Origin: a virus
Taxonomy: Duplodnaviria > Caudoviricetes
DNA length: 55,751 nucleotides
Strand: one strand, 5' to 3'
Virus record (IMG/VR): IMGVR_UViG_3300048888_000044
Coordinates: 1 to 55,751 of that record
The translations under genes and the position numbers were made by a program. Positions 10,382 through 34,769 of this stretch are shown one piece after another. Under the pieces are notes generated by a model. The model searched no databases, had not been told where the DNA came from, and was given only the letters and a program-made list of their open reading frames with translations. Every line of letters starts with the position of its first letter. The first letter of the stretch is position 1.

Positions 10382-12502
10382 GTGGCTGAAAAAGAAAAAT
10401 CGAAAGATGTCTTCGACGGCTTCACGACGCTGGAGGGTGGCGTCAATTCCGGTGTCGTCCCTTCGCTCGTAAAAGAGAACCAGCTTTCCTTCGCTGCCAA
10501 CGCCACTCTGCGAGGCGGGTATGCCACGGCGCGCGCCATGTTTCACCAGCGCGTTTTGGATTTCGGTGGCAACACGGTACTCGAGTCGCGCTTCAGAACA
10601 GGCCGATGGCAGGGAGGGGAATCCTACCAGTCGGACGCCGGACAGACGTATCTGATCTGGTGCATTGGCGGCCGGCAGTTCGTCATCAAACCTGGGCCGG
10701 TGAAGTTCAAGGTCCAGGAAATCACCATCAACATTCAGACGGTTACGACGCTGGCCTTCGTGGTGCCGGCAGTCGGCTCTACCGTTAGCGTAAGCGTTCT
10801 TGATACAAGTAACCTGCATAACGGGTATCAGGTTGAAATCGCTGGACACAACTACGTTGTGACATCGGTGACAAGTCCAACGACGGTGACCGTAAAAAAC
10901 GTGGACGATGTTCCTGGAAGCGTTATCGGTGTAGGAGCGCAGTTCATATTCTGGGACGTGAATCCCGCGTCCCGATCTCACGCTTGGCTGTGGCAGTCGG
11001 AGAAGTGGATGATAATTAACGACGGTCAGAGCGTTCCCATTTTTTTCGATGGCGCCACCTCGCGACGGTCGAATGTTGCAGGAGATGAACTGACGGCCGG
11101 GAGGATGGGAGTCTATTGGAAGGGACGTAACTGGTGGGTCAACCCGGACGGTCTGACATTTCGTGCGGGAGACTTGGTGTACTCGAGCAGCGGCACTCCC
11201 GCGGAACAGAAGCGCGACGCCGTGCTCAAGCAGACTCAGAATATCTTCCTGACCAGTGGTAATTTCTCAGTGCCAGCCAACGCAGGTCAGATCATGGCGA
11301 TGAAGGCCGTCGCCAACCTAGACGTGTCACTTGGGCAGGGACCGCTTCAGGTGTTGACGGCCACGACGATTTTCAACTGCGACGCTCCGGTTGATCTGAC
11401 GGAATGGCAGAACACCAACAGTGTTCTTTTGAGCGTCAGCCAGATCGAGGGTGGCGGGTTGTCACAGTACTCAACCGTGGTGGCCAACGGCGATTTGTTT
11501 TACCGCAGCTTCGCCGGCATTCAGACATTGATTCTTGGCCGGCGAGATTTTCAACAGCGTTGGGGAAACAAGCCGGTTAGCCGGGAGATGAACCGCATCA
11601 TGCTCGCCGACAACCCGAGCCTACTGGAGTTCTCCACCGCGATCGTGTTCAACAACCGCCTGCTGATGAGCGCCAGTCCAACTGTGTCCGACCGAGGAAT
11701 CTATCATCGCGCCGTGGTGGCGTTGGATTTCGACATTCTTTCCACGTTGCAGGGCAGTCCTCCCCCGATTTACGATGGCGGTTGGACCGGGTTGCAGGTG
11801 TTGCAGATGATGAAGGGCGTCTTCGGTTCGATGGAACGCGCCTTTGCGGCGAGTTTCAACGGGAGTGGCGAGATCGACCTGTTCGAGATCATGCCCTCGG
11901 GCGTGGAGTTCGCCGACACCAACAACGACCTGGAATATCCGGTGGTGTGGTCTCTCGAAACCGGTGATATGTTCAAACGCACCGGTCTGGGAGCGTTTGA
12001 GCGCGTGAGGTTGCAGGATGGGGAGATTTATGTTGATGATATTCGCGGACGGGTGGACATCAGAATTTTTTATCGTCCCGATGCGTACCCGTGTTGGGTG
12101 TTCTGGCATGGCTGGAGCATTTGCGCGAAGCAGGAAGAGTGTCTTCCTGATCCGTTCACCTGTCTGTCGATCCTCAACGCACAGCCGCAATACCGGGTCC
12201 GCATGGGGTTTGGTGAACCTTCTCCGAAACCGTGCGACCCGATCACGAACAAACCGTTTCGCGAGTTCTACACCTGCCAGATCAGGATTCTGGTGCAGGG
12301 TTGGATGCGGATTAGCGGACTCAAACTGCGCGCGGTGGAGACGATGGAGCCGTTGATGGCGCCGATGATGTGCCAGAGTCCGACGTGCGACCTGCTGCCG
12401 GAACTTCCACCGGAACCGGACGTGAACGTGCGAGACGCGTGGTTGACCCACGAGAACAATTGGTGGAGTGTCGATGACGACACGTATTTCCTGATAAGCT
12501 GA
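10382..12502 (+). CDS. Tail tubular B / stabilization-like protein
   Basis: 706 aa beta-rich; position in virion operon. Confidence 0.55.
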   Translation: MAEKEKSKDVFDGFTTLEGGVNSGVVPSLVKENQLSFAANATLRGGYATARAMFHQRVLDFGGNTVLESRFRTGRWQGGESYQSDAGQTYLIWCIGGRQFVIKPGPVKFKVQEITINIQTVTTLAFVVPAVGSTVSVSVLDTSNLHNGYQVEIAGHNYVVTSVTSPTTVTVKNVDDVPGSVIGVGAQFIFWDVNPASRSHAWLWQSEKWMIINDGQSVPIFFDGATSRRSNVAGDELTAGRMGVYWKGRNWWVNPDGLTFRAGDLVYSSSGTPAEQKRDAVLKQTQNIFLTSGNFSVPANAGQIMAMKAVANLDVSLGQGPLQVLTATTIFNCDAPVDLTEWQNTNSVLLSVSQIEGGGLSQYSTVVANGDLFYRSFAGIQTLILGRRDFQQRWGNKPVSREMNRIMLADNPSLLEFSTAIVFNNRLLMSASPTVSDRGIYHRAVVALDFDILSTLQGSPPPIYDGGWTGLQVLQMMKGVFGSMERAFAASFNGSGEIDLFEIMPSGVEFADTNNDLEYPVVWSLETGDMFKRTGLGAFERVRLQDGEIYVDDIRGRVDIRIFYRPDAYPCWVFWHGWSICAKQEECLPDPFTCLSILNAQPQYRVRMGFGEPSPKPCDPITNKPFREFYTCQIRILVQGWMRISGLKLRAVETMEPLMAPMMCQSPTCDLLPELPPEPDVNVRDAWLTHENNWWSVDDDTYFLIS

Positions 12503-12512
12503 AAGGCAACCT

Positions 12513-13343
12513 ATGTCGCTAACCGGTCTCAGAGTAAACCAATTCCCGCTTACCGCCACCGCGATCAACGACGACGATTACTTCGGCATCGCCCAGGACG
12601 TTGGTGGAGGGGTGTACCAGACCAAGAAGGCAAAACGCAGCTTGTTGATGTCAGCAGACGAACAGGCGTATTGGATCATTCAGGCGGCGCTGCTGGATCC
12701 AAAAGCCTATGATTTCCTTGAAGGAGTCACGGTGACAGTTCCACCAAACGTAACCTGGGCTGCGGTGGCGTTTTGGGGTATGCAGGATGCTGGAGGAAAC
12801 CCTTCACAATACCAAAGAATTGCCGACTCCAAAAAGCCGATGGCTCTTGCTCCCGGTGTCGTGTTCACTCCCAGCTTTGCTTTCTCCCACATTTACATTT
12901 GTAAACCCGAACTGGTTACCGGTTCCGATGCTCGTTACTCTTCCGGTTTGAAGGCTAAAAACCTTTATTATCAAAGATTGCAGAGACTCTACACGATACC
13001 TGTTTCAAATCTTACGGTTCCAGTTCCAAACACAACTCCATTTGGAACCGGAGTTGTAGTGAACTTTCCGAATGACTTCACTTACGGAATGATCTGTGAA
13101 GTGTCTTCGTTTGACGTGGCTTGGACAGGATTACTGACAGCGAGTGGGTTGGGGGTAATGAACCTGGATCACGAAGTCGCCGACGACCACGAATCCAGAA
13201 TGACCAATGTTACGCTGACCCCTTTCGCCTTGTCTGCATTTCCATCAGTGAAAAGCAGGGCGGCCAGCATTTCTGGAACGACGGGAACCATGCTATCTGG
13301 TTTCGGAAACGTGTTTTACTACAAACTACCAGTAGATTGGTGA
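12513..13343 (+). CDS. Putative structural protein
   Basis: 276 aa ORF in virion operon. Confidence 0.55.
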   Translation: MSLTGLRVNQFPLTATAINDDDYFGIAQDVGGGVYQTKKAKRSLLMSADEQAYWIIQAALLDPKAYDFLEGVTVTVPPNVTWAAVAFWGMQDAGGNPSQYQRIADSKKPMALAPGVVFTPSFAFSHIYICKPELVTGSDARYSSGLKAKNLYYQRLQRLYTIPVSNLTVPVPNTTPFGTGVVVNFPNDFTYGMICEVSSFDVAWTGLLTASGLGVMNLDHEVADDHESRMTNVTLTPFALSAFPSVKSRAASISGTTGTMLSGFGNVFYYKLPVDW

Positions 13344-13346
13344 TTT

Positions 13347-13736
13347 ATGAGCGCAAACCAAGAGAGAGGATTTTCGGAAAGTGGTCTTTGGGTTCCCGCT
13401 GACGCAAGCGGCGCCGGATTGGTATTCACCAACCTCACAGGCAACTGTCGTTACTTGAGGATCGGAGATTTGGTGGTGTGTTTTTCCAGAATCAGCTATC
13501 CAGTCAACGCCTCCGGTGCTAGCGCCAGTTTCTCAGGATTGCCTTTTTCTTCCAAGGCTACGACCAACTCGGTTGCCAACGGAACAGTGTGGACCGATTC
13601 CGGTCTGGAGCTTCATCTGTTGGTGTCTGCCGGTGGAACCACGGTTTTCATCTACGGCAACGCAGGGATACAATTCACCAACACCCAATTGTCCGGTAAA
13701 GATGTGAGAGCGACTGTGATCTACGAAGCTGCCTGA
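13347..13736 (+). CDS. Fibre/receptor-binding-like small protein
   Basis: G.W.P...YLRIGDLV...SGLPF pattern. Confidence 0.6.
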   Translation: MSANQERGFSESGLWVPADASGAGLVFTNLTGNCRYLRIGDLVVCFSRISYPVNASGASASFSGLPFSSKATTNSVANGTVWTDSGLELHLLVSAGGTTVFIYGNAGIQFTNTQLSGKDVRATVIYEAA

Positions 13737-15625
13737 TGTCCGAAACTTCGTGTCCAACGTGCGATCAGGTTGTTGACTGCTGCGTTCCGAGCGGTCTGGA
13801 CGATTATTTGCTGGTTGGACCGACCTTCTTCAACAACCAGGTGGCGGTGTTGTTTCAATGTCCTCAAGGTTACGTCTGCACGCCAGGAACCTATCCCAAG
13901 CTCATCGTCATTGCGGCGCGAACGATTCCGTGGAACCCGCCGCCGACACCCAACTTCCTTCCACTGACGATCAACTGCTGTGACGGGCCGTTGACAGTTC
14001 AGTATGACCCGAACATTTCACAGTCGGACTACAACGCATTGCTTCAGTCGATGGTTGACGAGGCCGCGCGCCGGCTGGCTGGATGCCAGGAAAAGGCGTT
14101 TCGAGGCAAGAAGAAGAAACAGACGAGTGACGCGCAGACGGTGTTGTGTCCGAACGGCGACCCGATCACCAACGTATCAGGACTTCCTCTGTCCTCGTTC
14201 CTGCCAACCAGTATCACGATTTCGGCAGGTGGAAATGGTTTGACGATGAAAGCAGGAACTTTCACAGGAGCAACCAAGGATGAAGCCAATCAAAAGGCTT
14301 TGGATGAACTGACCAAGCAGTTCAACAAGGCAATCACGTCCGGCAAGCTGGTTTGTGGAACTGTGACAGCGCCATGTTCGATCTTCGAGAACGACAACAC
14401 GTCTCAGGGACATCGGACGATGCCGAACGGGCCTTTGCCAACGGGTGCCAATTTCGCTCCTGCTTGGGCGACTCTGGCTCCTGGGAATTACCAGCTTCAG
14501 TTTGTCAGTGGTGCATATCAGGTGGCGAGTGGTCCGAACCAATTTGCCGTAAACGGCGGAGCCGGAAGTCCGGTCATCGAGTTGTCGGTGCATCATGGCT
14601 CCACATGCACAACCGTTGGCGCGGACAACACCATTGCTGCGAATGCGTTGTTTGATGCGACTGAAGCCGCTGCCGCCGCTGACTTCCTGGCTCAGTACAC
14701 CGGAAATGAGAAAGAGTTCTTCGTTGGTGACGGTTCCGACGACAATGTTTGCATGGTAGAGGATTCAACCAACGGATTGTTGGGAGTCAGCGGAACGACC
14801 AAACCCATCTTCGACCTGGTAAAGATCAAGAAGCTGACCACCGCGCAGCCAGCTTCTCTTCAAATCCAGAATTTCGCCACCTACGCGAACGGTCGTTACC
14901 GGATCATCTACGGTGCTTCGACATCCGGTCTGCTGACGTTTACTTCCAATGCCGCCACGATTCAGGCCGCGCTCAACGCCATGCCGTCGATAATCTCGGA
15001 CGGGGGAGTGACCGTGGTGGTGAATCCGGCGATTCCAAATTTCGGTTCTGGTTTTGACATCACTTGGAACAACAATGGTCTGAGAACCGCGCTCAACCCG
15101 CAACTGACCACGGTGAATCCCGGCATCTTCGGACAACTGTTCATCACCCAGGCTGGCAACGCCGGGCTGCCGGCCATTCAAACGTTGTTCGTGGGCAAAC
15201 GATGCAGCTTCTTCGACGACGACCTGGTGGACCCGGAGTGGGATGGTTCCGTTACCAACCGTTACCTATCCTATCCGGTGTGGCGTCAGTCGGCCACCAG
15301 CTCGGTCAATCCGAATTACCCTATCGACCTGCCGGCCGCTCCGCTCGCTATCAAGGTCAACGAAATGGCGTTCATTGAGTGCTTCGTTTATCTCGCTGCC
15401 AGTGGATTGCCAGGATCGGGTAGTGGCTGCGGTTGGGTGATGATTATGGTGGGATTCATCGGCGCATTTGCCACTCCAAGTTTGCTGTGGTCGGGAGTGA
15501 AGTTCGACGGCCTTACACCAGCCGGCACCTATCACCAAGTCGATTCAACGCAGCTCGATCAACCGTGGACGGATGGCTGTCCGGTGGACATCACGCATGG
15601 GGTTGGACAGATCACTTTGGCATGA
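13736..15625 (+). CDS. Cys-rich virion protein
   Basis: 629 aa; NAATIQAALNAM motif; coupled to neighbours. Confidence 0.6.
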   Translation: MSETSCPTCDQVVDCCVPSGLDDYLLVGPTFFNNQVAVLFQCPQGYVCTPGTYPKLIVIAARTIPWNPPPTPNFLPLTINCCDGPLTVQYDPNISQSDYNALLQSMVDEAARRLAGCQEKAFRGKKKKQTSDAQTVLCPNGDPITNVSGLPLSSFLPTSITISAGGNGLTMKAGTFTGATKDEANQKALDELTKQFNKAITSGKLVCGTVTAPCSIFENDNTSQGHRTMPNGPLPTGANFAPAWATLAPGNYQLQFVSGAYQVASGPNQFAVNGGAGSPVIELSVHHGSTCTTVGADNTIAANALFDATEAAAAADFLAQYTGNEKEFFVGDGSDDNVCMVEDSTNGLLGVSGTTKPIFDLVKIKKLTTAQPASLQIQNFATYANGRYRIIYGASTSGLLTFTSNAATIQAALNAMPSIISDGGVTVVVNPAIPNFGSGFDITWNNNGLRTALNPQLTTVNPGIFGQLFITQAGNAGLPAIQTLFVGKRCSFFDDDLVDPEWDGSVTNRYLSYPVWRQSATSSVNPNYPIDLPAAPLAIKVNEMAFIECFVYLAASGLPGSGSGCGWVMIMVGFIGAFATPSLLWSGVKFDGLTPAGTYHQVDSTQLDQPWTDGCPVDITHGVGQITLA

Positions 15626-25084: not shown

Positions 25085-25175
25085 TTCTAACGCCAAAGCT
25101 GAGCCGGGACGCTCGAATGAGGACGAATGACTAAACCAACGTGCCAGCGGCCTTGGCTCCAGCGTCTGGTTAGGT
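25085..25175 (-). other. attC-like site 1
   Basis: Minus strand ACCTAAC-CAGAC-GCTGGAGC...GCTCAGC-TTTGGC-GTTAGAA. Confidence 0.9.
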
Positions 25176-25448
25176 GCATTCAGTTGGGGCACTCTCCAAA
25201 TAAAGAGTCTTGTGCTTCAGGATTTCCAAGTCCGACAGGGCAAGAAACTGCGTGGCAGCGTTCAAAGATAATGGCAAAGGAAACAGCCAAACATTGTCGA
25301 AGAGCAATTTGGTGTGCGAATCTTTCTTTTTTAGCGTTTCGTATTCACTTAAAAGATACTGCCAAGACTTCCATTTATCGGTTGGTGGTTCGTGCCCGTG
25401 AGATGGTGACGGCTTTTCGACGCAAATCAGTAAGTGTGGGGTGTTCAT
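25170..25448 (-). CDS. Cassette 1 gene (canonical orientation), hypothetical
   Basis: ATG shortly after GTTAGGT; stop TAA inside ACCTAAC of attC1. Confidence 0.7.
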   Translation of the reverse strand: MNTPHLLICVEKPSPSHGHEPPTDKWKSWQYLLSEYETLKKKDSHTKLLFDNVWLFPLPLSLNAATQFLALSDLEILKHKTLYLESAPTECT

Positions 25449-25464
25449 ATTGTGAAGGGAATGC

Positions 25465-25601
25465 ACCTAACGACCGAAGCTCACCCGCGACGCTGAAGGA
25501 AAAGGAGATTCATGAAAAAGAATAAAACCGATATGAAAAAGAATAAAACCGATGGTCTAACCTCAACGCCAGCGGCGTCGCGGTGCAGCGCATGGTTAGA
25601 C
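25465..25601 (-). other. attC-like site 2
   Basis: GTCTAAC-CATGC-GCTGCACC...GGTGAGC...GTTAGGT; loop holds a 21-nt tandem duplication. Confidence 0.88.
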
Positions 25602-25904
25602 ATCATGCCGAAGCTGTTTACTCTCCAACATCTTTCTCGTCTTCTCTTCCTCGTCAGACAGCCAATTTGGTGGAGTTTGAAGGGCAGCCAGTTTATTCTT
25701 CAATGCCGTATTATCTTTCATAAGTCGCTCTATCGTTTTTATCTGTGTCGCAAGTGTGTCGTCTTGTTTGTCAGCGCGCGCCTGGTACGCTTCCGCCTCT
25801 TCCAAGCCGAGCGAAAGCTGATTGCGCAATATGGCCGTGACTGGCGGCTTCGTGTGTTCAACAATGAGTGCGTCGAGTCTTTGAAGATGTTCGATAAGAT
25901 TCAT
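25596..25904 (-). CDS. Cassette 2 gene (canonical orientation), coiled-coil protein
   Basis: ATG about 15 nt after GTT; stop TAA inside GTCTAAC of attC2. Confidence 0.75.
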   Translation of the reverse strand: MNLIEHLQRLDALIVEHTKPPVTAILRNQLSLGLEEAEAYQARADKQDDTLATQIKTIERLMKDNTALKNKLAALQTPPNWLSDEEEKTRKMLESKQLRHDV

Positions 25905-25912
25905 ACGATGAT

Positions 25913-26002
25913 GTCTAACCCCGGAACTCAGCGACCCGGCGACCAGACGAAGGACTCACCCTCAACGCCCAAGCCGGGTTCGTTGGAGTGACCTGGTTAG
26001 AA
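25913..26002 (-). other. attC-like site 3 (probable founding site of array 1)
   Basis: Plus strand GTCTAAC...ACTCAGCGACCCGGC / GCCGGGTTCGTTGGAGT...GTTAGAA. Confidence 0.85.
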
Positions 26003-27559: not shown

Positions 27560-27817
27560 GTGTCGATGTCACGTTCAAAAGGCCATCGCACGGGTGAGAT
27601 AGAGGGAATTCGGGTTCGTCCGAGTCTGCAACTGCTGAACATCATCAGCGCGTATCCCACGACCAACGCCGCAGCCAAATTTCTTGGTCTCGCCTATTCG
27701 ACGCTCGACAGTTTCATCAATCACGAGGGAGGAATCAGCCTCGACAACGCCGCGCAGATCATCACGCGGACGGGGTTGAGTTACGAACAACTGTTCAAGC
27801 ACAAGAAGGAGAAGTGA
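27560..27817 (+). CDS. Cro/CI-type HTH regulator
   Basis: NAAAKFLGLAYSTLDSFIN...ISLD...YEQLF. Confidence 0.75.
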   Translation: MSMSRSKGHRTGEIEGIRVRPSLQLLNIISAYPTTNAAAKFLGLAYSTLDSFINHEGGISLDNAAQIITRTGLSYEQLFKHKKEK

Positions 27818-28374
27818 GCGACAAACAGAAATACGGACGAGAGGTTGCTCTAAAGGTGGCTGAAGACCTTCAATCCCGACTCAAGCTGGCGTGCCGTAGA
27901 ATGGCTGTGGCTGGATCACTGCGTCGAGGAAAAGAAACCGTTGGAGATGTTGAGCTGCTTTTTGTGCCAGTGCTGGCGGAACGGGCCGATGGACTGTTTG
28001 ACCGCCGCTTGGTGTCCGTGGCGGACGAAGTGTGCAACGAACTGTTGCGCGACGGAATTCTAGCGAAACGCCCAAACGTCAAAGGTCACTTTACGTGGGG
28101 CGAGGCAAACAAGCTGGCGGTGCATGTTGCAAGCGGAGTGCCGGTGGACTTCTTTTCCACGACCGAAGACAACTGGTGGGTGAGTCTGGTGATTCGCACT
28201 GGCAGCAAGGAAACCAACCTGAAGCTGACCAACGGAGCCATTCACCTTGGCAGGAAATTACACGCTTACGGATCGGGAGTTACGATGCCGGACGGAAGCA
28301 CTCGAAAAGCCCAAAGCGAACAGGAAGTTTTTGAACTGTGCGGAGTCCCTTACCTTGAACCGAAAGACCGATAA
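27814..28374 (+). CDS. Minimal family X DNA polymerase
   Basis: AGSLRRGKETVGDVELL, VDFF, RTGS, SEQEVFE..G.PY.EP..R. Confidence 0.9.
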   Translation: MSDKQKYGREVALKVAEDLQSRLKLACRRMAVAGSLRRGKETVGDVELLFVPVLAERADGLFDRRLVSVADEVCNELLRDGILAKRPNVKGHFTWGEANKLAVHVASGVPVDFFSTTEDNWWVSLVIRTGSKETNLKLTNGAIHLGRKLHAYGSGVTMPDGSTRKAQSEQEVFELCGVPYLEPKDR

Positions 28375-28376
28375 AC

Positions 28377-29489
28377 ATGACCACCCAACTATCCAAACCG
28401 AACACCATCGAGTCGATGCTGGCGTCGCCTCAGATACGTCAACGCTTCAACGAGATGCTCGGGCAACGCGCGCCGCAGTTCATTTCGTCGATTATCACCG
28501 TTTACCGTGGATTTTCTTCCCCGGTAGATCCGGCGAGCGTCATTGCCAGCGCCGCCATCGCCGCCACCCTGGACCTTCCGATCGAGAAGAACCTTGGTTT
28601 CGCGCACATCGTTCCTTACGCGGGCGTGGCTCAATTTCAAATGGGAGCGAAAGGACTGACCCAGTTGGCTCTTCGCAGCAATCAGTATTCGGGGATGAAC
28701 GCCGTGGCCATCAATGCGGAGTGCTTCGGTGGGTACGACAACATTGGAGATCCGATCATTCGTTGGGACTTGCTTGACGAGACCAAGGAAGCGATTGGGT
28801 ACGTGTTCGCGTGGCGTCTGACTAGCGGATTTTCAAAGACGGTTTACTGGCCCAAAGCGAAGGTGGTTGCTCACGCTGAACGATTCAGCCAGGCGTACAA
28901 GAAAAAGAAGGCTGACAGTCCGTGGATGAACAACTTTGACGCAATGGCCCTGAAAACTGTGATAGCAAACTCACTGCGACGGTGGGGTATTTTGAGCGTT
29001 CAGATGCAAACCGCGTTCAAATACGACCAGGCGATCATCAAGAACATCGACGCCGAACCGCAGTACGAGGACGATATCCCGTTCGGTCCGGCGACGACCT
29101 CCAAACTGATTTCAGGCGGGAAGAAAACCCGCAAGCAGGAGCCTCAGGAACCGACTGAGCCTGAGCAACCAATTTCCGGCGAGGGTTCTGACGAGTCCAC
29201 CGCCGGCACTCCCGCGCCCATCGCCCCTGGTTCTCCAGATCAGCTCAATGGGCCGGGAGTTGTTCCTTTGGAGCACGGTGACAGTGAGGACGCCAACGAG
29301 GTCATTCGCATCATCATGGCCAACGCGCGTGAGCTGGGAATCGAGGAAAAGTTGCTGATGATGTGGTCCAAGGCGGCGAAACTGGCTTCTGAAAAACAGA
29401 GTCAACTGAGCGACCTGGCGACGCACAAGCTCAAGAAAATCTGCGAACAATGGCCGGCCGTGGTGAAGGAGATTACCGGGAAGTCATAA
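28377..29489 (+). CDS. recT: RecT-family ssDNA annealing protein
   Basis: AATLDLPI..NLGFAHIVPY..AQFQMG.KG..QLALRS, FDAMALKTV; stop is the TAA of attC4. Confidence 0.92.
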   Translation: MTTQLSKPNTIESMLASPQIRQRFNEMLGQRAPQFISSIITVYRGFSSPVDPASVIASAAIAATLDLPIEKNLGFAHIVPYAGVAQFQMGAKGLTQLALRSNQYSGMNAVAINAECFGGYDNIGDPIIRWDLLDETKEAIGYVFAWRLTSGFSKTVYWPKAKVVAHAERFSQAYKKKKADSPWMNNFDAMALKTVIANSLRRWGILSVQMQTAFKYDQAIIKNIDAEPQYEDDIPFGPATTSKLISGGKKTRKQEPQEPTEPEQPISGEGSDESTAGTPAPIAPGSPDQLNGPGVVPLEHGDSEDANEVIRIIMANARELGIEEKLLMMWSKAAKLASEKQSQLSDLATHKLKKICEQWPAVVKEITGKS

Positions 29490-29571
29490 CGACAAGCTGA
29501 GGCACGGCGGAGAAAACCAATGACCATGAAAAGCGAACAATCCCGCCGTTGCCTCCAGCGACTGGTTCGAG
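29484..29571 (-). other. attC-like site 4
   Basis: CTCGAAC-CAGTC-GCTGGAGG-CAACGGCGG / CCGCCGTG-CCTCAGC-TTGTC-GTTATGA. Confidence 0.9.
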
Positions 29572-29953
29572 GACATTCGTGTATCCCGTCGAAGCCAATC
29601 ACTCCACCGTCCTCGGCTACGGAGCAACCTCAAAAGCTGGAAAACCAATGTGGGCGGCGCTGGTGTGGGCTGGCGCACGCAAGGACGGCGGCGCACACAT
29701 GATGAATCCGACCGGAGGCGAATACCTGCACGTCCGCGTGAAGCCTCTGACGGACGGCTGCTGGTATCGCGTCCGCTGCTCCCACTCCCGCGGAAACAGA
29801 TGGCGTGGCGGCGTCGTGGAAAATGTCGAAGTAAAACAAAAACGGGGCAAGTGGCACTGGCACGTCACTGTGTCCTCGAACGTAGAGGTGAGCGGTCAGA
29901 GTGGGCGCGATAAGGCGTCCGCCTGCAAGCCGGACTCAATGCGCCCACTCTGA
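29549..29953 (+). CDS. Cassette A gene, hypothetical
   Basis: Frame open from attC4 into attC5; start uncertain. Confidence 0.5.
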   Translation: MPPATGSRTFVYPVEANHSTVLGYGATSKAGKPMWAALVWAGARKDGGAHMMNPTGGEYLHVRVKPLTDGCWYRVRCSHSRGNRWRGGVVENVEVKQKRGKWHWHVTVSSNVEVSGQSGRDKASACKPDSMRPL

Positions 29954-29976
29954 TTCGCTCGACCGATTTGTTAGAC
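29875..29976 (-). other. attC-like site 5
   Basis: Arms TCAGAGTGGGCGC / GCGCCCACTCTGA with extrahelical bases. Confidence 0.92.
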
Positions 29977-29984
29977 GACGATTT

Positions 29985-30236
29985 ATGAAACAAGACAACC
30001 AATGGCATGACGGAATCGTGTATCAGCACTCTGATGATGGCAAATTCGTGCTCGCTGAAAACTTAGAGGAAGCTGACAAAGACAATCGCCCGATGACGAT
30101 GGAAGGGGGAGGCGTGAAATACCAAGACGTGAAATACAACTGGAATCGCGGACAGCCAATCGTGGACTTCGGCGATTTCAAAATGGTCATCACAGACATC
30201 GGGTTCGTAAAACTGGACGAAACGCAAGTCGTCTAA
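29985..30236 (+). CDS. Cassette B gene, hypothetical
   Basis: ATG just after GTTAGAC; stop in GTCTAAC. Confidence 0.7.
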   Translation: MKQDNQWHDGIVYQHSDDGKFVLAENLEEADKDNRPMTMEGGGVKYQDVKYNWNRGQPIVDFGDFKMVITDIGFVKLDETQVV

Positions 30237-30338
30237 CGAAAAGCTGACGCACAGCCGCGATTAACTATGAGCACGAAATTAACCTGTGACGCTGGACTGC
30301 AACAGACCCCGGCTGTTGCGTCCGGCGTCTTGTTAGCA
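30231..30338 (-). other. attC-like site 6
   Basis: GCTGACGCACAGCCG / CGGCTGTTGCGTCCGGC arms flanked by AAC and GTT. Confidence 0.9.
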
Positions 30339-30617
30339 CCCAAAACCCTCGAAGAACTCATAAACCAAGCCGCCGAAGTGCTGCCTGACTGGTGGGAGAT
30401 ACGAATCGAAGTGCAGCAAGGATACGGGCAAGCAATCGTGACGCGGCCAGACGGCACGGAAGTGCAAATGTCCGATGGCGAGAACGACATCCGAGAACAG
30501 TTTCGTGATGCGCTGGGTCTGGTGCGTGATGAACTGGAAGCAGACAAACTCTTGGGTGCTAACGACAAGCTCAGAGATGGCGCGACAGAGAGGCGTCCAT
30601 ATTCACAGGAAACGTAA
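30267..30617 (+). CDS. Cassette C gene, hypothetical
   Basis: Starts in attC6 loop, ends in attC7 loop. Confidence 0.7.
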   Translation: MSTKLTCDAGLQQTPAVASGVLLAPKTLEELINQAAEVLPDWWEIRIEVQQGYGQAIVTRPDGTEVQMSDGENDIREQFRDALGLVRDELEADKLLGANDKLRDGATERRPYSQET

Positions 30618-30648
30618 TCGCGCCATTCTCTGAAGCGCATGGTTAGAG
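30557..30648 (-). other. attC-like site 7
   Basis: GCTCAGAGATGGCGCGA / TCGCGCCATTCTCTGAAGC arms. Confidence 0.92.
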
Positions 30649-30661
30649 CACGTCAAATACA

Positions 30662-30976
30662 ATGAAAACACTGACACCAGGACACAAATACGAACTCGAA
30701 AACTTCGAGGCCAAAGACCAACCCGGTCAGGTCATCCAGTTCATCGAGAAAACTCCAGTCGCCGGCGAACCCGGCAAACTGGTCACACTCAACGACGGCA
30801 CGACCAACGAGGAAGTGCTCAAGATGCTGATAGACCGCTGCCAGTCTCTCTACGACAAATTCCCGTCGGAGGAAACGGCGTGCTCCATCAGCCATCTCAA
30901 ATCGGCGCTATACGCGCAACAGTCCCGGACATACGAACGCTCTCAACGCGGCGTCGAAGGGAAGCACCTCAAGTGA
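30662..30976 (+). CDS. Cassette D gene: Tad1/Acb2-like anti-defence sponge
   Basis: H.Y...IQF...GTTNEEVL..LIDR...F.SEETAC.I.HL..AL....RT.ER..RGVEG matches the Tad1 pattern. Confidence 0.7.
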   Translation: MKTLTPGHKYELENFEAKDQPGQVIQFIEKTPVAGEPGKLVTLNDGTTNEEVLKMLIDRCQSLYDKFPSEETACSISHLKSALYAQQSRTYERSQRGVEGKHLK

Positions 30977-31001
30977 CAACCGAGCACGGGGAGACTAAGT
31001 G

Positions 31002-31127
31002 CTCTAACGCAGAAGTGAGCGGACAGCCGCCGAGTGCGACTCGCAATGACACCAAAAATCTATGAGCAAAAATAACGAATCGAAACGGAAAAGCGGGGCG
31101 GCTGTTCGCTCCACTGACGGGTTAGGC
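31002..31127 (-). other. attC-like site 8
   Basis: AGTGAGCGGACAGCCGCC / GGCGGCTGTTCGCTCCACT arms. Confidence 0.9.
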
Positions 31128-31325
31128 ATCGGCACAATCCACGACCCAAAAGCTATGTTCCTCCGCAACTACGTCGGGGAAGCAACGTGCGGAAAACTCA
31201 AATACGAAATTAGCACTGGAATGAACGGCTCGCCAATCGTCCACAGCAAGAAATCCGGCAAGTGGTTCTCGCTATCATGGCAAGACATTCTGGCGCTCGC
31301 GGAGAAGGCAGGCGTAGATGCCTAA
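31062..31325 (+). CDS. Cassette E gene, hypothetical
   Basis: Starts in attC8 loop; stop in GCCTAAC. Confidence 0.7.
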   Translation: MSKNNESKRKSGAAVRSTDGLGIGTIHDPKAMFLRNYVGEATCGKLKYEISTGMNGSPIVHSKKSGKWFSLSWQDILALAEKAGVDA

Positions 31326-31444
31326 CGCAGAAGTCAGCGACAGCCGCCGAGAGAAACCATGAACGACACTCTGACATTGGAACAGCCAGCAACGCCTCGA
31401 AACGGAGAGCGGGGCGGCTGTTCGTCTGCACTGATTGGTTCGGC
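31320..31444 (-). other. attC-like site 9
   Basis: AGTCAGCGACAGCCGCC / GGCGGCTGTTCGTCTGCACT; similar to attC8. Confidence 0.9.
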
Positions 31445-32048
31445 ATTTCGGTGTGTCGTAGCTGACCCTCCGTGGCTGCCAACGATGGCACTGGTGAATA
31501 GTCCTGCCAGCGGTATCGGTGCACCGAAGGCAAGTCCGCAACGCCACTACCCGACGATGAGCGTCGAGGAAATCTGCGCCCTGAATCCGCCGTCTGCCAC
31601 TCAATCTCACCTCTGGCTCTGGTGTCTGAATCAGCACACGGATTGGGGTCACACCGTCGCAAAGGCGTGGGGCTTTGAAGTGTTCCAGATGGTGACGTGG
31701 TGCAAACCCGGCCTCGGAACTGGCCGATTCCAATGCAACAGCGAGCAAGTGCTACTCTGCCGGAAAGGAACTCGCCACGGCAATCCGTTCGGGATGACCG
31801 GCGGCACATACTTCAACTGGCCGCGTGGCCGACACTCTGAAAAGCCGGATTCATTCTACGACCTCGTGGAGCGAGTATCACCTGGCCCGCGTCTGGAAAT
31901 GTTCGCTCGCACCCGCAGACTCGGCTGGTCTGCATGGGGCAACGAAATCTCCAGCGACGTAGAAATGCCGAACGCAGAGTCCAGCTATCGGAGTGGGCCG
32001 GTAGCGGCGTCGAATAAACCGGCGGCTCAATCGGCCCACTCCGATTAG
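31359..32048 (+). CDS. Cassette F gene: MT-A70-family adenine methyltransferase
   Basis: ADPPW, HLWLW, HSEKP, RLEMFAR, GWSAWGNE. Confidence 0.9.
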   Translation: MNDTLTLEQPATPRNGERGGCSSALIGSAFRCVVADPPWLPTMALVNSPASGIGAPKASPQRHYPTMSVEEICALNPPSATQSHLWLWCLNQHTDWGHTVAKAWGFEVFQMVTWCKPGLGTGRFQCNSEQVLLCRKGTRHGNPFGMTGGTYFNWPRGRHSEKPDSFYDLVERVSPGPRLEMFARTRRLGWSAWGNEISSDVEMPNAESSYRSGPVAASNKPAAQSAHSD

Positions 32049-32067
32049 CTGCGACGATTGGTTAGCT
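31967..32067 (-). other. attC-like site 10
   Basis: GTCCAGCTATCGGAGTGGGCCG / CGGCCCACTCCGATTAGCTGCGAC with two extrahelical bases. Confidence 0.93.
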
Positions 32068-32074
32068 GCTTTTT

Positions 32075-32503
32075 ATGGGAATGTTTGACGACATCAAGTG
32101 CAAGTATCCGCTGACGGTGGAAGGTGCGAACGCGCTCGCCTACCAGACGAAGGACACCGACGCGCAGCAACTCGACAACTACGAGATTCGAGAGGACGGA
32201 ACGCTGTGGCACGAGAACTACGATCCTCGATTTGAGGAGCACAAAGAAGCGCCTCTCGGCTTCTACATCCACCGCGACAACCTGAGATGGGAGCAAGTGC
32301 CCATAACTGGCGAAGTCCGATTCTACACGATGTATGGCGTCAAAGACGGGCAACTGGTGAACGCCAACGCCCGTGACGGCTGGCTGGAATGGTCGGCCTA
32401 CTTCGCGGACGGAAAACTCAATCAAATTCACCTGCTCGAAAACCGAGCGCCAGATGCAGCTAACGATGAGTTCAGGCGCACAGACCCGCCGTTGAAACCA
32501 TGA
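32075..32503 (+). CDS. Cassette G gene, phage-type hypothetical
   Basis: MGMFD...QTKD...Y.I.EDG.L...TG.VRFY...F.DG.L; stop in attC11 loop. Confidence 0.8.
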   Translation: MGMFDDIKCKYPLTVEGANALAYQTKDTDAQQLDNYEIREDGTLWHENYDPRFEEHKEAPLGFYIHRDNLRWEQVPITGEVRFYTMYGVKDGQLVNANARDGWLEWSAYFADGKLNQIHLLENRAPDAANDEFRRTDPPLKP

Positions 32504-32592
32504 CGCCACTCGAACAATCCAAGCCTGCCGACGAAGCCCGCGACTCTGTGCTGCGAAGCGGGGCTGTGTCGTCCTGCAACGATTTGTTAGGG
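32458..32592 (-). other. attC-like site 11
   Basis: GTTCAGGCGCACAGACCCGC / GCGGGGCTGTGTCGTCCTGCAAC. Confidence 0.88.
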
Positions 32593-33360
32593 CGCGTTTT
32601 GGTGGCGTGCGAATATAGCGGAACTGTCCGCGATGCGTTCAAACTCAAGGGATGGGATGCTTGGTCGTGTGACTTGCTTCCAACCGATGTTCCTGGACAA
32701 CACCATCAAGGAGACGTGGCAGAACTTCTGAAACAGCAATGGGACATAATCATCGCCTTCCCACCATGCACCTATCTCTGCTCGTCTGGAATGCACTGGA
32801 CTGTGCGAGGCAAGCGCGATCCTCAACTGACGGAAGACGCGCTCAGTTTCGTGCGCTCATTCCTCGATGCTCCCTGTGAACACATCGCGCTCGAAAATCC
32901 AGTCGGCTGCATCTCGACGCGCATCCGAAAACCGGACTGCGTGATTCACCCTTGGCAATTCGGACACCCCGAATCCAAGACAACCTGCCTATGGCTCAAA
33001 AATCTTCCGGCGCTCGTGCCGACAAATATCCTGACAAAGCCAGCAAGCGGCCACTGGGAAAACCAATGCTCAACCGGCTCGCAAAACCGACTAGGGCCAA
33101 GCCCAACCCGGTGGAAGGAACGAAGCAAAACATATCAAGGCATCGCCTCCGCGATGGCCGCACAGTGGAGCGCGTTCGTATTAAATTCGCGCACGACTGC
33201 CAAGAGTGTCCCGATTGCGGAGAACCTTTTTGCTTGGAGTGCCAGGAACACTACGCCGACTGCCGATGTGTCGGGCCAAGCAACGCCGAAGATGATGGAT
33301 GGACGCTCATTGAACGGCGTGGAGTGCTCTACGGCGAACGCAACGCGCCCTAACAAATGA
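32500..33360 (+). CDS. Cassette H gene: C5-cytosine methyltransferase-like
   Basis: VLVACEYSG, SCDL, FPPCTYL, ENPVG, HPWQFGH; ATG supplied by attC11 loop. Confidence 0.8.
   Translation: MTPLEQSKPADEARDSVLRSGAVSSCNDLLGRVLVACEYSGTVRDAFKLKGWDAWSCDLLPTDVPGQHHQGDVAELLKQQWDIIIAFPPCTYLCSSGMHWTVRGKRDPQLTEDALSFVRSFLDAPCEHIALENPVGCISTRIRKPDCVIHPWQFGHPESKTTCLWLKNLPALVPTNILTKPASGHWENQCSTGSQNRLGPSPTRWKERSKTYQGIASAMAAQWSAFVLNSRTTAKSVPIAENLFAWSARNTTPTADVSGQATPKMMDGRSLNGVECSTANATRPNK
33165..33353 (+). CDS. Cassette H second ORF, Cys-rich Zn finger
   Basis: CQECPDCGEPFCLECQEHYADCRC; stop in CCCTAAC. Confidence 0.55.
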   Translation: MERVRIKFAHDCQECPDCGEPFCLECQEHYADCRCVGPSNAEDDGWTLIERRGVLYGERNAP

Positions 33361-33366
33361 TTAGAC
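33348..33366 (-). other. attI-like simple site closing array 2
   Basis: Minus strand GTCTAAT-CATTT-GTTAGGG (L, 5-bp spacer, R); no attC arms. Confidence 0.6.
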
Positions 33367-33369
33367 AAC

Positions 33370-33678
33370 ATGGCGCGCCGAGCAAATAGCCGAAATGTCT
33401 GGTGGCAAAATCACTACGCCAAACTGCGCGCCGCCAAGGAACGCAAGCGTCTTGCCGATCCTGATTTCAGCCAGGAAACGAATCCCCTAGTGCCAATTCC
33501 GCGCCCCAAAGCGCGCTTCCGTATCTTGATTGAGGATCAGCAGGTGGGTGACCGGCTCCAGATCAAACTTTATCCCACTCCCTTCCGCGGCCAGTTTGCG
33601 ACGGGCGATGGGATCCGCAGCGTGCGCCAGCTCGAACGCGCCTTTGGCCATATTTTGAGAACAGCTTTTACCGTATGA
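33370..33678 (+). CDS. Hypothetical basic protein
   Basis: 102 aa, coupled to next gene. Confidence 0.6.
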   Translation: MARRANSRNVWWQNHYAKLRAAKERKRLADPDFSQETNPLVPIPRPKARFRILIEDQQVGDRLQIKLYPTPFRGQFATGDGIRSVRQLERAFGHILRTAFTV

Positions 33679-34769
33679 AAAGAACCCCATTCAGCGCCTC
33701 AAACTTTTCACGCCGTCGTCTCTGCAACGGCAGTCTCCCGATGGAGGACGGGTTGCCCGAGGTCGAGAACGAGTGGTCGGCGGAAGGGACGCTGCTGCAC
33801 CACGCCGCGGCGACACAAGTTCACACGGGTCTCAACCAATATCAGTCAGAAGTGGTTCAGCAAGCACTCGGTCATCGAAATCGGTTCATCGACACTCTCG
33901 CTCCACCAGACCCGGACGACTGGAAATTCTTCTTCGAGATCGAACTGCCGTACACTCTCAAGAACAAGACCGTGTTCCTGAACCACGCGGACTACGTGGC
34001 AGTGTTCCCAAAGGCCGTCGCCATCGTGGACTACAAATTCGGCTACGAGGAAGTCGATGCGCCGGAACTGAACGAGCAACTGGCGGTTTACATTGCCTGC
34101 TTGGCCGAGAAATTTGACGTACCGGAATACTACGGCCTGATAATCCCCAGGTTTGGCAATCCGGCGCCACCGGTGAAGTACACGCGCGCGGAGATTCCTG
34201 CCCTGCGAAAGATGATCGAGGACGTGTACGACGCCTGCACACCGAAGGCACCACGCACGCCTGGGGTGAGGCAGTGTACCTATTGCAAAGGTTTTCAGCT
34301 TGGTTTGTGCAAAGAGGCAATCAGCATGGCGATGAATCCAGTCCACAAGTTCAGCGGAAAGTTGCTTCAGAATCCCGGCCAAGTATTGCAATCACTCCCT
34401 GCGACTGACCGCACCAAACTCTTCGACGCCTTCGCGATGGCCGACAAGTTGCGCAAGACGTTCGTGGCCGCAGTCAAACCGATGATTGAGCGAGATCCTG
34501 AGTTCGTTCCTGGATACCGACTCAGCAAGGAGGGTGAGACAAGAAGCAAGGTTACGGATTTGTTCAGCTTAGAGGAAAGGCTGTGGAAAAAATTGAATTT
34601 GTCCCACGAAGGATTTGTGGCTCACTGCTCTATTTCCAACACGGAATTGAAAGATTTGGTTCGCGAGATTTCGGGCCTAAAAGGCAAAGAGCTGGACGCA
34701 AAGGTTGCTGAGTTGACTAAGGGACTGGTGGATACGACGCCGGTGGAAAGGAGTTTGGAGAGGGTATGA
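33675..34769 (+). CDS. Cas4-like PD-(D/E)XK exonuclease (DUF2800-like)
   Basis: C..S, AEGTLLH, AD, IVDYKFG, N.QL..Y, C..C....C. Confidence 0.8.
   Translation: MKRTPFSASNFSRRRLCNGSLPMEDGLPEVENEWSAEGTLLHHAAATQVHTGLNQYQSEVVQQALGHRNRFIDTLAPPDPDDWKFFFEIELPYTLKNKTVFLNHADYVAVFPKAVAIVDYKFGYEEVDAPELNEQLAVYIACLAEKFDVPEYYGLIIPRFGNPAPPVKYTRAEIPALRKMIEDVYDACTPKAPRTPGVRQCTYCKGFQLGLCKEAISMAMNPVHKFSGKLLQNPGQVLQSLPATDRTKLFDAFAMADKLRKTFVAAVKPMIERDPEFVPGYRLSKEGETRSKVTDLFSLEERLWKKLNLSHEGFVAHCSISNTELKDLVREISGLKGKELDAKVAELTKGLVDTTPVERSLERV

What the first reader, a model, noticed from the sequence alone, without database searches (positions are those of the whole stretch)
29484..33360. Inverted cassettes whose attC sites are translated and supply start codons
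Seen: all 8 array-2 cassettes encode genes on the plus strand, opposite to classical cassette orientation and co-directional with the HTH-PolX-RecT operon. ATGs lie in attC loops (30267, 31062, 31359, 32500; also 25127, 25512, 29520). Both methyltransferase domains begin right after GTT with no other ATG, so they depend on their own attC for initiation. Genes stop at the TAA of the next TAAC or run into the neighbour's attC (ANDKLRDG.., PNAESSYR.., ANDEFRR..). The G/H junction is ATGA-coupled inside attC11. Inference: a phage-adapted cassette class needing no Pc promoter, where shuffling swaps C-terminal tails and preserves translational coupling.
Basis: partly seen in the sequence, partly recalled or inferred. 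Interest (0 to 1): 0.85.

Follow-up and report, generated by a model that had tools for sequence, protein, structure and literature searches.

The report
Reversed integron cassettes in a phage
A soil phage carries eight integron gene cassettes built back to front, with the recombination hairpin ahead of each gene and often holding its start codon, an arrangement that integron research does not seem to have described.

Summary
The core observation holds. Window 29485-32592 has eight genuine integron attC sites, plus three more at 25086-26002. The 55.7-kb phage genome has no integron integrase, so this is a CALIN.

Three independent tests show that the + strand is the attC bottom (recombinogenic) strand:
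- A covariance model of the + strand hits 10 class 1 attC sites, 4 sites beside two integrases of a MAG and 2 sites of phage TJE1. All 16 hits lie on the strand expected for classical cassettes.
- The array ends in an orphan box with no hairpin behind it.
- The MT-A70 cassette recurs in an unrelated phage as one block, "upstream attC + gene", bounded at AA|C on both sides.

All eight array-2 genes lie on +, seven with homology support, so each cassette is attC first and gene second. Four genes start at in-frame ATGs in the attC loops (30267, 31062, 31359, 32500). A fifth does so in sister populations. Four start just after the hairpin. Five read on into the neighbour's attC.

ATG 29520 is out of frame in this record. 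The second methyltransferase has TTG/GTG alternatives.

Expression and start-codon use remain inferred. This is a new variant of a known kind.

The parts
28377..29489 (+). Phage recT gene. Its TAA stop (29487-29489) is the TAA of the first 5' box. Array 2 begins at 29490.
   Evidence: Pfam RecT E 3e-32; sequence
29485..29571 (+). attC s4 (87 nt), bottom strand on +. The loop ATGs at 29520 and 29526 are out of frame with gene A in this record.
   Evidence: R1 70.8 bits; RNA fold z -3.7; 19-nt loop difference in runs X5 and X6
29579..29953 (+). Cassette A gene, function unknown. It starts at GTG 29579 behind a GAGGA motif, or at TTG 29549. It ends inside attC s5.
   Evidence: 38 homologues, 11 at E<=1e-10, covering residues about 2-100; leaders and tails of relatives
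29876..29976 (+). attC s5 (101 nt)
   Evidence: R1 59.8 bits; fold z -6.4
29985..30236 (+). Cassette B gene (83 aa, unknown). ATG lies 9 nt after s5. The stop is the TAA of the next TAAC box.
   Evidence: Open frame and codon-position GC only; no family hit
30232..30338 (+). attC s6 (107 nt) with loop ATG 30267
   Evidence: R1 73.7 bits
30267..30617 (+). Cassette C gene (116 aa). It starts in the s6 loop and ends in the s7 loop.
   Evidence: Two relatives. The conserved core runs from just after the GTT box to the next AAC; the ends differ.
30558..30648 (+). attC s7 (91 nt)
   Evidence: R1 71.8 bits; fold z -4.9
30662..30976 (+). Cassette D gene (104 aa). ATG lies 14 nt after s7. It has its own TGA stop.
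   Evidence: phrog_2428 E 1e-16
31003..31127 (+). attC s8 (125 nt) with loop ATG 31062
   Evidence: R1 65.9 bits; ATG unpaired in the fold
31062..31325 (+). Cassette E gene (87 aa). The stop is the TAA of the next box.
   Evidence: A 73%-identical relative aligns from residue 21, which is the TTA-GGC of the 3' box
31321..31444 (+). attC s9 (124 nt) with loop ATG 31359. It travels together with the MT-A70 gene.
   Evidence: R1 67.7 bits; 73% identical to the attC ahead of the L035 homologue, while the flanks are 34-39%
31359..32048 (+). Cassette F gene, an MT-A70 DNA methyltransferase (229 aa). The first 29 residues come from attC s9. The tail after PN comes from s10.
   Evidence: Pfam MT-A70 E 1e-17, residues 30-196; alignment A2
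31968..32067 (+). attC s10 (100 nt)
   Evidence: R1 65.4 bits; fold z -7.0
32075..32503 (+). Cassette G gene (142 aa). ATG lies 8 nt after s10. It ends at the TGA inside the s11 loop.
   Evidence: phrog_1615, residues 1-85 against profile positions 1-83
32459..32592 (+). attC s11 (134 nt) with loop ATG 32500, which overlaps the stop of G (ATGA)
   Evidence: R1 56 bits
32500..33360 (+). Cassette H gene, a DNA methyltransferase (phrog_757) with a Cys-rich tail. The family core starts at residue 31, right after s11.
   Evidence: phrog_757 E 7e-66, residues 31-241; homologues without an attC start M/V-R-V-L-V
33348..33354 (+). Orphan 5' box CCCTAAC, 7/7 complementary to the 3' box of s11. No hairpin follows it. 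The right end of array 2 is the crossover 33353|33354.
25086..26002 (+). Array 1: attC s1, s2 and s3 with the same polarity. Its two cassette genes lie on the minus strand (25170-25466 and 25599-25904), so these cassettes are classical.
   Evidence: R1 57-64 bits; 9 homologues of the minus-strand ORF

Best explanation
WHAT IT IS
Window 29490-33353 is a block of eight integron gene cassettes. The genome has no integrase, so the block is a CALIN. It sits directly behind the stop codon of the phage recT gene, inside a run of co-directional early genes.

THE REVERSED BUILD
All attC sites show their recombinogenic bottom strand on the + strand, which is also the coding strand. Each cassette is therefore "attC first, gene second". 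This is the reverse of the classical "gene first, attC last". The unit that moves runs from the C of one AAC box to the AA of the next.

ORIGIN (INFERRED)
A host integron integrase inserted the block at a G|TT on the minus strand, and later shuffled cassettes by attC x attC exchange.

EXPRESSION (INFERRED)
The block is transcribed with the phage operon, so each attC hairpin forms the 5' leader of its gene's message.
- In four cassettes here (C, E, F, H), and in A in sister populations, the start codon sits in the unpaired loop of the hairpin. The 3' arm and box are then translated as a short, poorly conserved leader peptide.
- In the other cassettes the start lies 8-14 nt behind the hairpin.
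- Five genes have no stop of their own before the crossover point. They end in the neighbour's attC, so their last residues depend on which cassette follows.

LIKELY CARGO FUNCTION
Two cassettes encode orphan DNA methyltransferases. These are the kind phages use against host restriction.
For: THE SITES ARE attC SITES
- 11 sites were found. 14 of 18 pairs carry compensatory changes.
- Box exchange between neighbouring sites is 7/7 in 10 of 10 pairs.
- Model R1, built from the sites, finds bona fide attC sites at 25-50 bits, one at 11 bits.

POLARITY
- R1 models the + strand. It hits known attC sites only on the strand opposite their genes: R388 2 of 2, where the same sites score 6-7 bits on the gene strand, and two further class 1 arrays, 5 of 5 and 3 of 3.
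- Beside two integrases of one MAG, 4 hits lie in classical geometry.
- In phage TJE1, 2 of 2 hits are classical.
- The bulged bases lie on the 3' arm of the + strand. Nivina 2016 describes this for the bottom strand (passages read).
- The array ends at an orphan box with no hairpin. That fits only a crossover at AA|C on the + strand.

THE UNIT THAT MOVES
- Window against L035: 39% identity before the AAC, 73% across attC s9, 74% across the gene, 34% after the next AAC.
- The two phages share nothing else. The L035 contig carries head, protease, portal and terminase genes.
- Replicate: the L088/L042 homology block starts at the 5' box of the upstream attC.

RECURRENCE
- 14 of 14 R1 hits around MT-A70 homologues in viral contigs lie on the gene strand. 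So do 29 of 29 in genome contigs.

ACCESSORY NATURE
- The sister phage L001 (RecT 84% identical, genome complete) has no attC site. Its recT abuts the next nuclease gene directly.

STARTS IN THE LOOPS
- 4 of 4 MT-A70 homologues preceded by an attC have an in-frame loop ATG. The homologue without an attC starts 6 codons before DPPW.
- 46 of 78 ATGs inside the sites are in the frame of the exiting ORF (binomial p 3e-6). On the top strand the figure is 17 of 49 (p 0.47).
- Sites with a loop ATG have a median length of 102 nt. Sites without have a median of 70 nt.
- The loop ATGs are unpaired in the RNA folds.
- A 19-nt loop variant in runs X5 and X6 puts ATG 29520 in frame with gene A.

OPERON CONTEXT
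- Gaps between genes are at most 90 nt.
- No terminator-like site was found on the + strand within the array.
Against: - No RNA or protein data exist. No RNA run was listed.
- Alternative starts exist: TTG/GTG for H, TTG 30329 for C, ATG 31155 for E.
- Few loop ATGs have a clear Shine-Dalgarno motif.
- The second bulged base is mostly C (8 of 11 sites), not the G of the best-studied attC sites.
- No empty-site relative was found, so the insertion point is a reconstruction. ORF 33370-33678 is also missing from the sister phage, so the block may have arrived by another route.
- The loci used for the counts were found through one gene family (MT-A70). They are neither independent nor unbiased.
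- By open frames alone, 25 of 40 spacers could not be assigned to a strand.
- R1 E-values are rough.
Confidence: 0.8

Rival explanations
1. The cassettes are reversed as described, but the loop ATGs are not used. Translation starts at near-cognate or downstream codons next to or behind the hairpin, and the open frames through the attC arms are incidental.
For: - Four of the eight genes clearly start behind their attC.
- H has TTG 32584, TTG 32599 and GTG 32602. Its relatives without an attC start directly at M/V-R-V-L-V.
- E has an internal ATG at 31155.
- Most loop ATGs lack a strong Shine-Dalgarno motif.
Against: - MT-A70 has no ATG, GTG or TTG between the attC and its catalytic DPPW motif. 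The same holds in L014.
- ATGs inside the sites are enriched in the exiting frame on the bottom strand only: 46 of 78 against 17 of 49.
- The E relative is conserved from the box onward, upstream of ATG 31155.
- Sites with a loop ATG are longer.
Confidence: 0.15
2. The array is a silent passenger. The cassettes were dropped into the phage by a host integrase and are carried along without being expressed or selected.
For: - Array 1 lies antisense to its flanking + strand genes, so at least some cassettes here seem badly placed for expression.
- There are no expression data.
Against: - All eight genes of array 2 are intact and co-directional with the operon, with gaps of at most 90 nt.
- Six metagenome runs hold the stretch at a word share of 0.95-1.00. 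The contigs of the two of these that were laid cover the array at near-identity.
- Frame-specific ATG enrichment argues for selection on translation.
- The methyltransferases have an obvious use for a phage.
Confidence: 0.1
3. The polarity is misread. The minus strand is the recombinogenic one and the cassettes are classical, each gene followed by its own attC.
For: - Both strands of an attC read RYYYAAC...GTTRRRY.
- The second bulged base is C on the + strand, which is the canonical G on the minus strand.
Against: - R1 hits 16 of 16 reference sites on the strand expected for classical cassettes.
- The homology block with L035 contains the upstream attC, not the downstream one.
- The array ends in an orphan box with no hairpin.
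- A classical cassette would leave the MT-A70 gene without a start codon of its own.
Confidence: 0.03
4. The hairpins are not integron sites. They are phage intergenic repeats or transcription terminators that merely resemble attC.
For: No integrase was found in the genome. Rfam has no match.
Against: - Cross-detection of class 1 attC sites at up to 50 bits.
- Box swapping between neighbouring sites, 10 of 10.
- Cassette-sized homology blocks bounded at AA|C.
- No T-runs behind the hairpins.
Confidence: 0.02

Closest known systems
Clusters of attC sites lacking an integrase (CALINs) in phage genomes (Qi et al. 2023, PMC9892861; abstract, section 3.4 and passages read)
   Same: attC arrays without an integrase in virulent or uncharacterised phages. 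DNA methyltransferases are among the cargo. R-box-like motifs are seen at the borders.
   Different: [quoted passage not shown] In its phage TJE1, R1 hits lie opposite the genes, which is classical. Reversed genes and start codons inside attC sites are not mentioned in the parts read. Its supplementary tables could not be opened.
Classical integron gene cassette (class 1 arrays on R388 and two other plasmids; an integron of a Verrucomicrobia-labelled MAG)
   Same: The same kind of attC site with RYYYAAC/GTTRRRY boxes, a bulged hairpin and box exchange between neighbours. Array 1 of this phage is built this way.
   Different: In array 2 the gene lies on the attC bottom strand, so the attC precedes its gene within the mobile unit. 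There is no attI, intI or Pc.
Cassettes transcribed against the array in Vibrio chromosomal integrons, such as toxin-antitoxin cassettes with their own promoter (parD/E3 passage in 10.1101/2023.11.21.568050; the rest is recalled)
   Same: A gene oriented against the usual cassette direction.
   Different: Those are single cassettes with their own promoters scattered through a classical array. Here a whole array is reversed, appears promoterless, and sits inside a phage operon.
ORF-11 and ORF-18 in attI1 (review PMC8876359, passages read)
   Same: A translation start inside an integron recombination site that serves a cassette gene. Stop-start coupling is involved.
   Different: ORF-11 lies in the platform's attI site and only helps the first cassette. 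Here the start lies in the cassette's own attC loop and moves with the gene.
Cassette insertion at non-classical attG sites, 5'-GWT-3' (Loot et al. preprint 10.1101/2022.09.11.507474, passages read)
   Same: The reconstructed target of array 2 is a G|TT on the minus strand outside any integron. Expression would depend on a resident promoter.
   Different: This is a multi-cassette block in a phage. The empty site was not observed.

Membership tests
integron attC recombination site | Inverse core and core boxes RYYYAAC ... GTTRRRY at the two ends | tested here: met
   11 of 11 sites carry AAC...GTT. The boxes are mostly yyTAAC/GTTAgr; s4 has CATAAC.
integron attC recombination site | Imperfect hairpin of about 57-141 nt. 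The structure, not the sequence, is conserved. Bulged bases lie on one arm only. | tested here: met
   Lengths are 87-136 nt. 14 of 18 pairs covary. There are two bulges on the 3' arm of the + strand. 6 of the 8 array-2 sites fold better than all 200 shuffles.
integron attC recombination site | Likeness to accepted attC sites under a structure-aware model | tested here: met
   R1 finds 10 of 10 class 1 attC sites in three plasmids at 11-50 bits, all on one strand. IntegronFinder's own model was not available.
integron attC recombination site | Recombined by an integron integrase at AA|C of the bottom strand | tested here: inconclusive
   Only footprints were seen: box exchange in 10 of 10 pairs and homology blocks bounded at AA|C. 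No assay was possible.
complete integron | intI gene with attI and Pc next to the array | tested here: not met
   No TIGR02249 match in the 55,751-bp, 99%-complete record. The element is therefore a CALIN.
classical gene cassette (gene on the attC top strand, attC at its 3' end) | The gene lies on the strand opposite the recombinogenic bottom strand, and the unit is gene plus downstream attC | tested here: not met
   In array 2 the genes lie on the bottom strand, and the upstream attC is the one inherited with the gene. The feature is met for array 1.
MT-A70 family methyltransferase (cassette F) | Pfam PF05063 above its cut-off, with the DPPW motif | tested here: met
   64.6 bits against a cut-off of 23.9, residues 30-196. 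DPPW is invariant in alignment A2. Activity and target were not tested.

The most novel reading that the evidence does not exclude
There is a second, so far undescribed architecture of integron cassette. It is "attC first": the variable loop of the recombination hairpin carries the gene's translation start. Such cassettes circulate among unrelated phages through host integrases. Because their genes lie on the attC bottom strand, they can be expressed from phage operons without any integron platform. The message itself, and probably the lagging-strand template, then carries the recombinogenic strand, which could make these arrays unusually mobile.
Probability: 0.4. Interest if true: 0.8.

Novelty: new variant of a known kind. 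Interest (0 to 1): 0.66.

Why it matters
- The integron model assumes that a cassette is a promoterless gene followed by its attC, oriented for expression from Pc. Strand selection by the integrase is explained by that need.
- A whole array built the other way round, and moving as "attC + gene" units between unrelated phages, shows that the recombination chemistry is indifferent to gene direction. Phages can use it without the platform.
- It gives the attC loop a second job as the site of translation initiation.
- It makes protein ends depend on cassette order.
- It warns that annotation pipelines will misplace the N- and C-termini of such genes and will assign cassettes to the wrong attC.
- It adds a route by which phages pick up anti-restriction methyltransferases.

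Tried and rejected
- My first IUPAC pattern for attC sites gave 5 matches against 5.3 expected and missed most sites. A crude arm-alignment scan and a regex also failed. I then fixed the sites by hand and with the model.
- Rfam had no match. No tRNA was found.
- The promoter and terminator scan was at chance level: 4 promoter-like sites against 4.2 expected, 13 terminator-like against 14.8. The TTGACA-N16-TAATGT I read upstream of 27560 was not listed.
- Search for an empty site. RecT relatives in viral contigs gave one close relative, which also lacks ORF 33370-33678. ORF 33370-33678 has no relatives in viral contigs. RecT in metagenome contigs gave 16 loci, none above 45% identity. No empty site was found.
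- H homologues in 7 viral contigs carry no attC site.
- PDB and NCBIfam gave nothing for the cassette proteins. Only PolX matched NCBIfam.
- The Atlas holds B letter for letter but gave no usable hit.
- GC skew follows gene direction and says nothing about replication.
- Polaribacter phage P12002L gave only chance-level R1 hits (E 0.3-0.9). One lies between two methyltransferase genes on their strand. This is inconclusive.
- No RNA holder was listed among the sequencing runs. The laid contigs showed no joints that skip a cassette.
- Searches for a prior description of reversed arrays, or of start codons inside attC, found nothing that fits.

Full report
CONTEXT
The window is a whole IMG/VR virus record of 55,751 bp, rated 99% complete. 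It has no match to the integron-integrase family TIGR02249. The region of the finding lies in a run of + strand genes. These are a small HTH-like ORF (27560-27817), a PolX-like gene (27814-28374; Pfam and NCBIfam), recT (28377-29489; Pfam E 3e-32), the array, ORF 33370-33678, and a DUF2800/PD-(D/E)XK nuclease gene (33675-34769).

ARE THESE attC SITES?
- Reading the sequence and folding it gives eight hairpins in 29485-32592 and three more in 25086-26002. They are 87-136 nt long, and each reads 5'-yyTAAC ... GTTrg-3' on the + strand.
- In their alignment (A1), RNAalifold predicts 18 pairs. 14 of them show compensatory changes.
- The strongest internal sign of integron recombination is box exchange. 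The 7-nt 3' box of each site is a perfect complement of the 5' box of the next site in 10 of 10 neighbouring pairs, and in s3 against s1. A site's own two boxes match in only 3-6 of 7 positions. This pattern is expected when cassettes are cut and joined inside the AAC/GTT triplet.
- A covariance model of the 11 sites (R1) finds nothing else in the window. It does find accepted attC sites of class 1 integrons at 25-50 bits, one at 11 bits.
- I conclude that these are genuine attC sites. Because the genome has no integrase, the element is a CALIN.

WHICH STRAND IS RECOMBINOGENIC?
Both strands of an attC read alike at the boxes, so I tested polarity in three ways.
1. R1 models the window's + strand. 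In R388 it hits the dfrB2 and orfA attC sites at 43.6 and 46.3 bits on the strand opposite the genes. The same places score 6-7 bits on the gene strand. In two more class 1 arrays it hits 5 of 5 and 3 of 3 attC sites, again opposite the genes. In a Verrucomicrobia-labelled MAG with true integrases (473 and 352 bits), three hits lie beside intI on intI's strand, with the cassette ORFs on the other strand. A fourth hit beside the second intI also fits the classical layout. In phage TJE1, a published phage CALIN, 2 of 2 hits lie opposite the genes. All 16 reference hits therefore say that R1, and so the window's + strand, is the bottom strand. The bulges on the 3' arm agree with the description of the bottom strand in Nivina et al. 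2016 (passages read). One difference is that the second bulge here is mostly C.
2. Array 2 starts with a full hairpin right at the recT stop (GTCATAA|C). It ends with an orphan box (CCCTAA|C, 33348-33354) with no hairpin behind it. An inserted block has that shape only if the crossover is AA|C on the + strand.
3. The MT-A70 cassette recurs in a 46-kb contig (L035/G006:C10). That contig is itself a phage, with major head, protease, portal and terminase hits, and it shares nothing else with the window. In the DNA alignment, identity is 39% before the AAC of s9, 73% through attC s9, 74% through the gene, and 34% after the AAC of s10. The unit that moved is therefore the upstream attC plus the gene. 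A second pair, L088/L042, shows a block that begins at the 5' box of the upstream attC.

GENE STRAND
- Seven of the eight array-2 genes are supported on the + strand by homologues or families. A has 38 relatives. C has 2. D, G and H have PHROG hits. E has one relative. F is MT-A70.
- B rests on its open frame and codon-position composition.
- Array 2 is therefore reversed relative to every classical cassette tested.
- Array 1 is not reversed. The minus-strand ORF 25599-25904 has 9 homologues with E from 1e-35 to 2e-18.
- All 11 sites share one polarity although the two arrays code in opposite directions. I cannot explain this.

STARTS
- Cassettes B, D and G start at ATGs 8-14 nt behind their hairpin. 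For G the PHROG profile aligns from residue 1.
- A starts at GTG 29579 behind a GAGGA motif, or at TTG 29549.
- C, E, F and H have in-frame ATGs in the loops, at 30267, 31062, 31359 and 32500. All lie in unpaired stretches of the RNA folds.
- For F there is no ATG, GTG or TTG between the attC and the catalytic DPPW motif. The homologues in L011, L012 and L014, each behind a different attC, also have an in-frame loop ATG. The L013 homologue has no attC and starts six codons before DPPW.
- For H the family core begins at residue 31. Relatives without an attC start M/V-R-V-L-V. In the window that start codon is replaced by the GGG of the 3' box. TTG 32584, TTG 32599 and GTG 32602 remain as alternatives.
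- For E the relative is conserved from the box onward, upstream of the internal ATG 31155.
- For A, contigs of two metagenome runs carry 19 more letters in the s4 loop. By my hand reading, this puts the loop ATG 29520 (GGAGA lies 8 nt upstream) in frame with gene A without a stop. Two relatives of A have long leaders that read through a Gly-Ser-Arg, which matches the GTTCGAG box.
- Across 51 sites in the window and related loci, 33 have an internal ATG on the bottom strand whose ORF runs at least 40 codons past the site, against 11 on the top strand. 46 of 78 internal ATGs are in the exiting frame (p 3e-6), against 17 of 49 on the top strand (p 0.47). Sites with a loop ATG are longer, with a median of 102 against 70 nt.
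- These loci were found through MT-A70 homologues, so they are neither independent nor unbiased.

ENDS
- B and E stop at the TAA of the next TAAC box. D stops before the box.
- A, C, F, G and H read through the crossover point and stop 2-25 codons later.
- In three families the tails diverge just after the Asn encoded by AAC: F, C and A. Tail swapping by cassette order is therefore observed.
- "Preserved coupling" is not shown. Only G and H overlap (ATGA). 18 of 27 loop ATGs are followed by A, but this may simply reflect second-codon preference.

ORIGIN AND EXPRESSION (INFERRED)
- The sister phage L001 (RecT 84% identical, complete genome with terminal repeats) has no attC site. Its recT overlaps the nuclease gene directly. 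It also lacks the PolX gene and ORF 33370-33678. The arrays are therefore accessory.
- The reconstructed target, a G|TT on the minus strand at the recT stop, fits the GWT consensus of attG insertion (Loot et al. preprint). No empty site was found.
- Transcription from the phage operon is inferred from co-orientation, gaps of at most 90 nt, and the absence of terminator-like sites on the + strand in the array.
- No RNA run was listed.

PRIOR KNOWLEDGE
- CALINs in phages, including methyltransferase cassettes and IntI1-active attC sites, were reported by Qi et al. 2023. The parts I read describe typical arrays and do not mention reversed genes or starts inside attC.
- Translation starts in attI1 (ORF-11) are known. 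So are single cassettes with promoters facing the other way in Vibrio.
- Eight searches found no description of reversed arrays or of attC-borne start codons.
- I therefore rate this a new variant of a known kind. Its structure is well supported. Its expression mechanism is still inferred.

Noticed in passing
window 25086-26002: Array 1 fills the whole gap between two + strand phage genes (24890-25075 and 26005-26295). Its two classical cassette genes point the other way, antisense to their surroundings. All 11 attC sites of the phage share one polarity. The 5' box of s1 (TTCTAAC) pairs 7/7 with the 3' box of s3, as if two cassettes had entered a single pre-existing site.
   Followed up: partly
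window 29535-29539 (loop of attC s4): Contigs of runs X5 and X6 carry 19 extra letters here, flanked by AACAA repeats. The window record therefore looks like a slippage deletion that took the loop ATG out of frame with gene A.
   Followed up: partly
window 27814-28374: The PolX-like gene is absent from the sister phage L001, where the flanking genes abut (window 27807 corresponds to L001 9988, and 28377 to 10001). No attC site flanks it. A PolX-like ORF (52% identical) also lies near the MT-A70 cassette in L053.
   Followed up: no
window 25512-25553 (loop of attC s2): A 21-nt stretch (ATGAAAAAGAATAAAACCGAT) is directly repeated twice inside the loop of s2.
   Followed up: no
L139-L141 (G006:C10): A 46-kb contig binned in a MAG labelled Candidatus Saccharibacteria is a phage, with head, protease, portal and terminase hits. 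It carries at least 11 attC sites on the gene strand, some on both sides of the terminase-like gene. This is probably a binning artefact.
   Followed up: partly
L011 4210-4271, 4524-4625, 5116-5174: Three sites have the 3' box GTTATGC. At 4268 the ATG inside the box itself opens the downstream ORF, so a start codon can sit in the core site as well as in the loop.
   Followed up: no
L121 (G007:C54) 10572-13816: A complete integron in a Verrucomicrobia-labelled MAG has unusually long attC sites of 170 nt. The search reported one TGA inside the integrase match.
   Followed up: no
window 31321-31340 and 31105-31127, run X8: A freshwater metagenome contig joins an s9-like 5' arm to an s8-like 3' arm through only 12 letters. 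It is a short-looped member of the same attC family and has no ATG.
   Followed up: no
window 33348-33367: The reconstructed target GTCATAA|CAAATGATTAGAC contains two imperfect inverted box-like motifs. This recalls the inverted GTTRRRY motifs that Qi et al. noted at the borders of phage CALINs.
   Followed up: no
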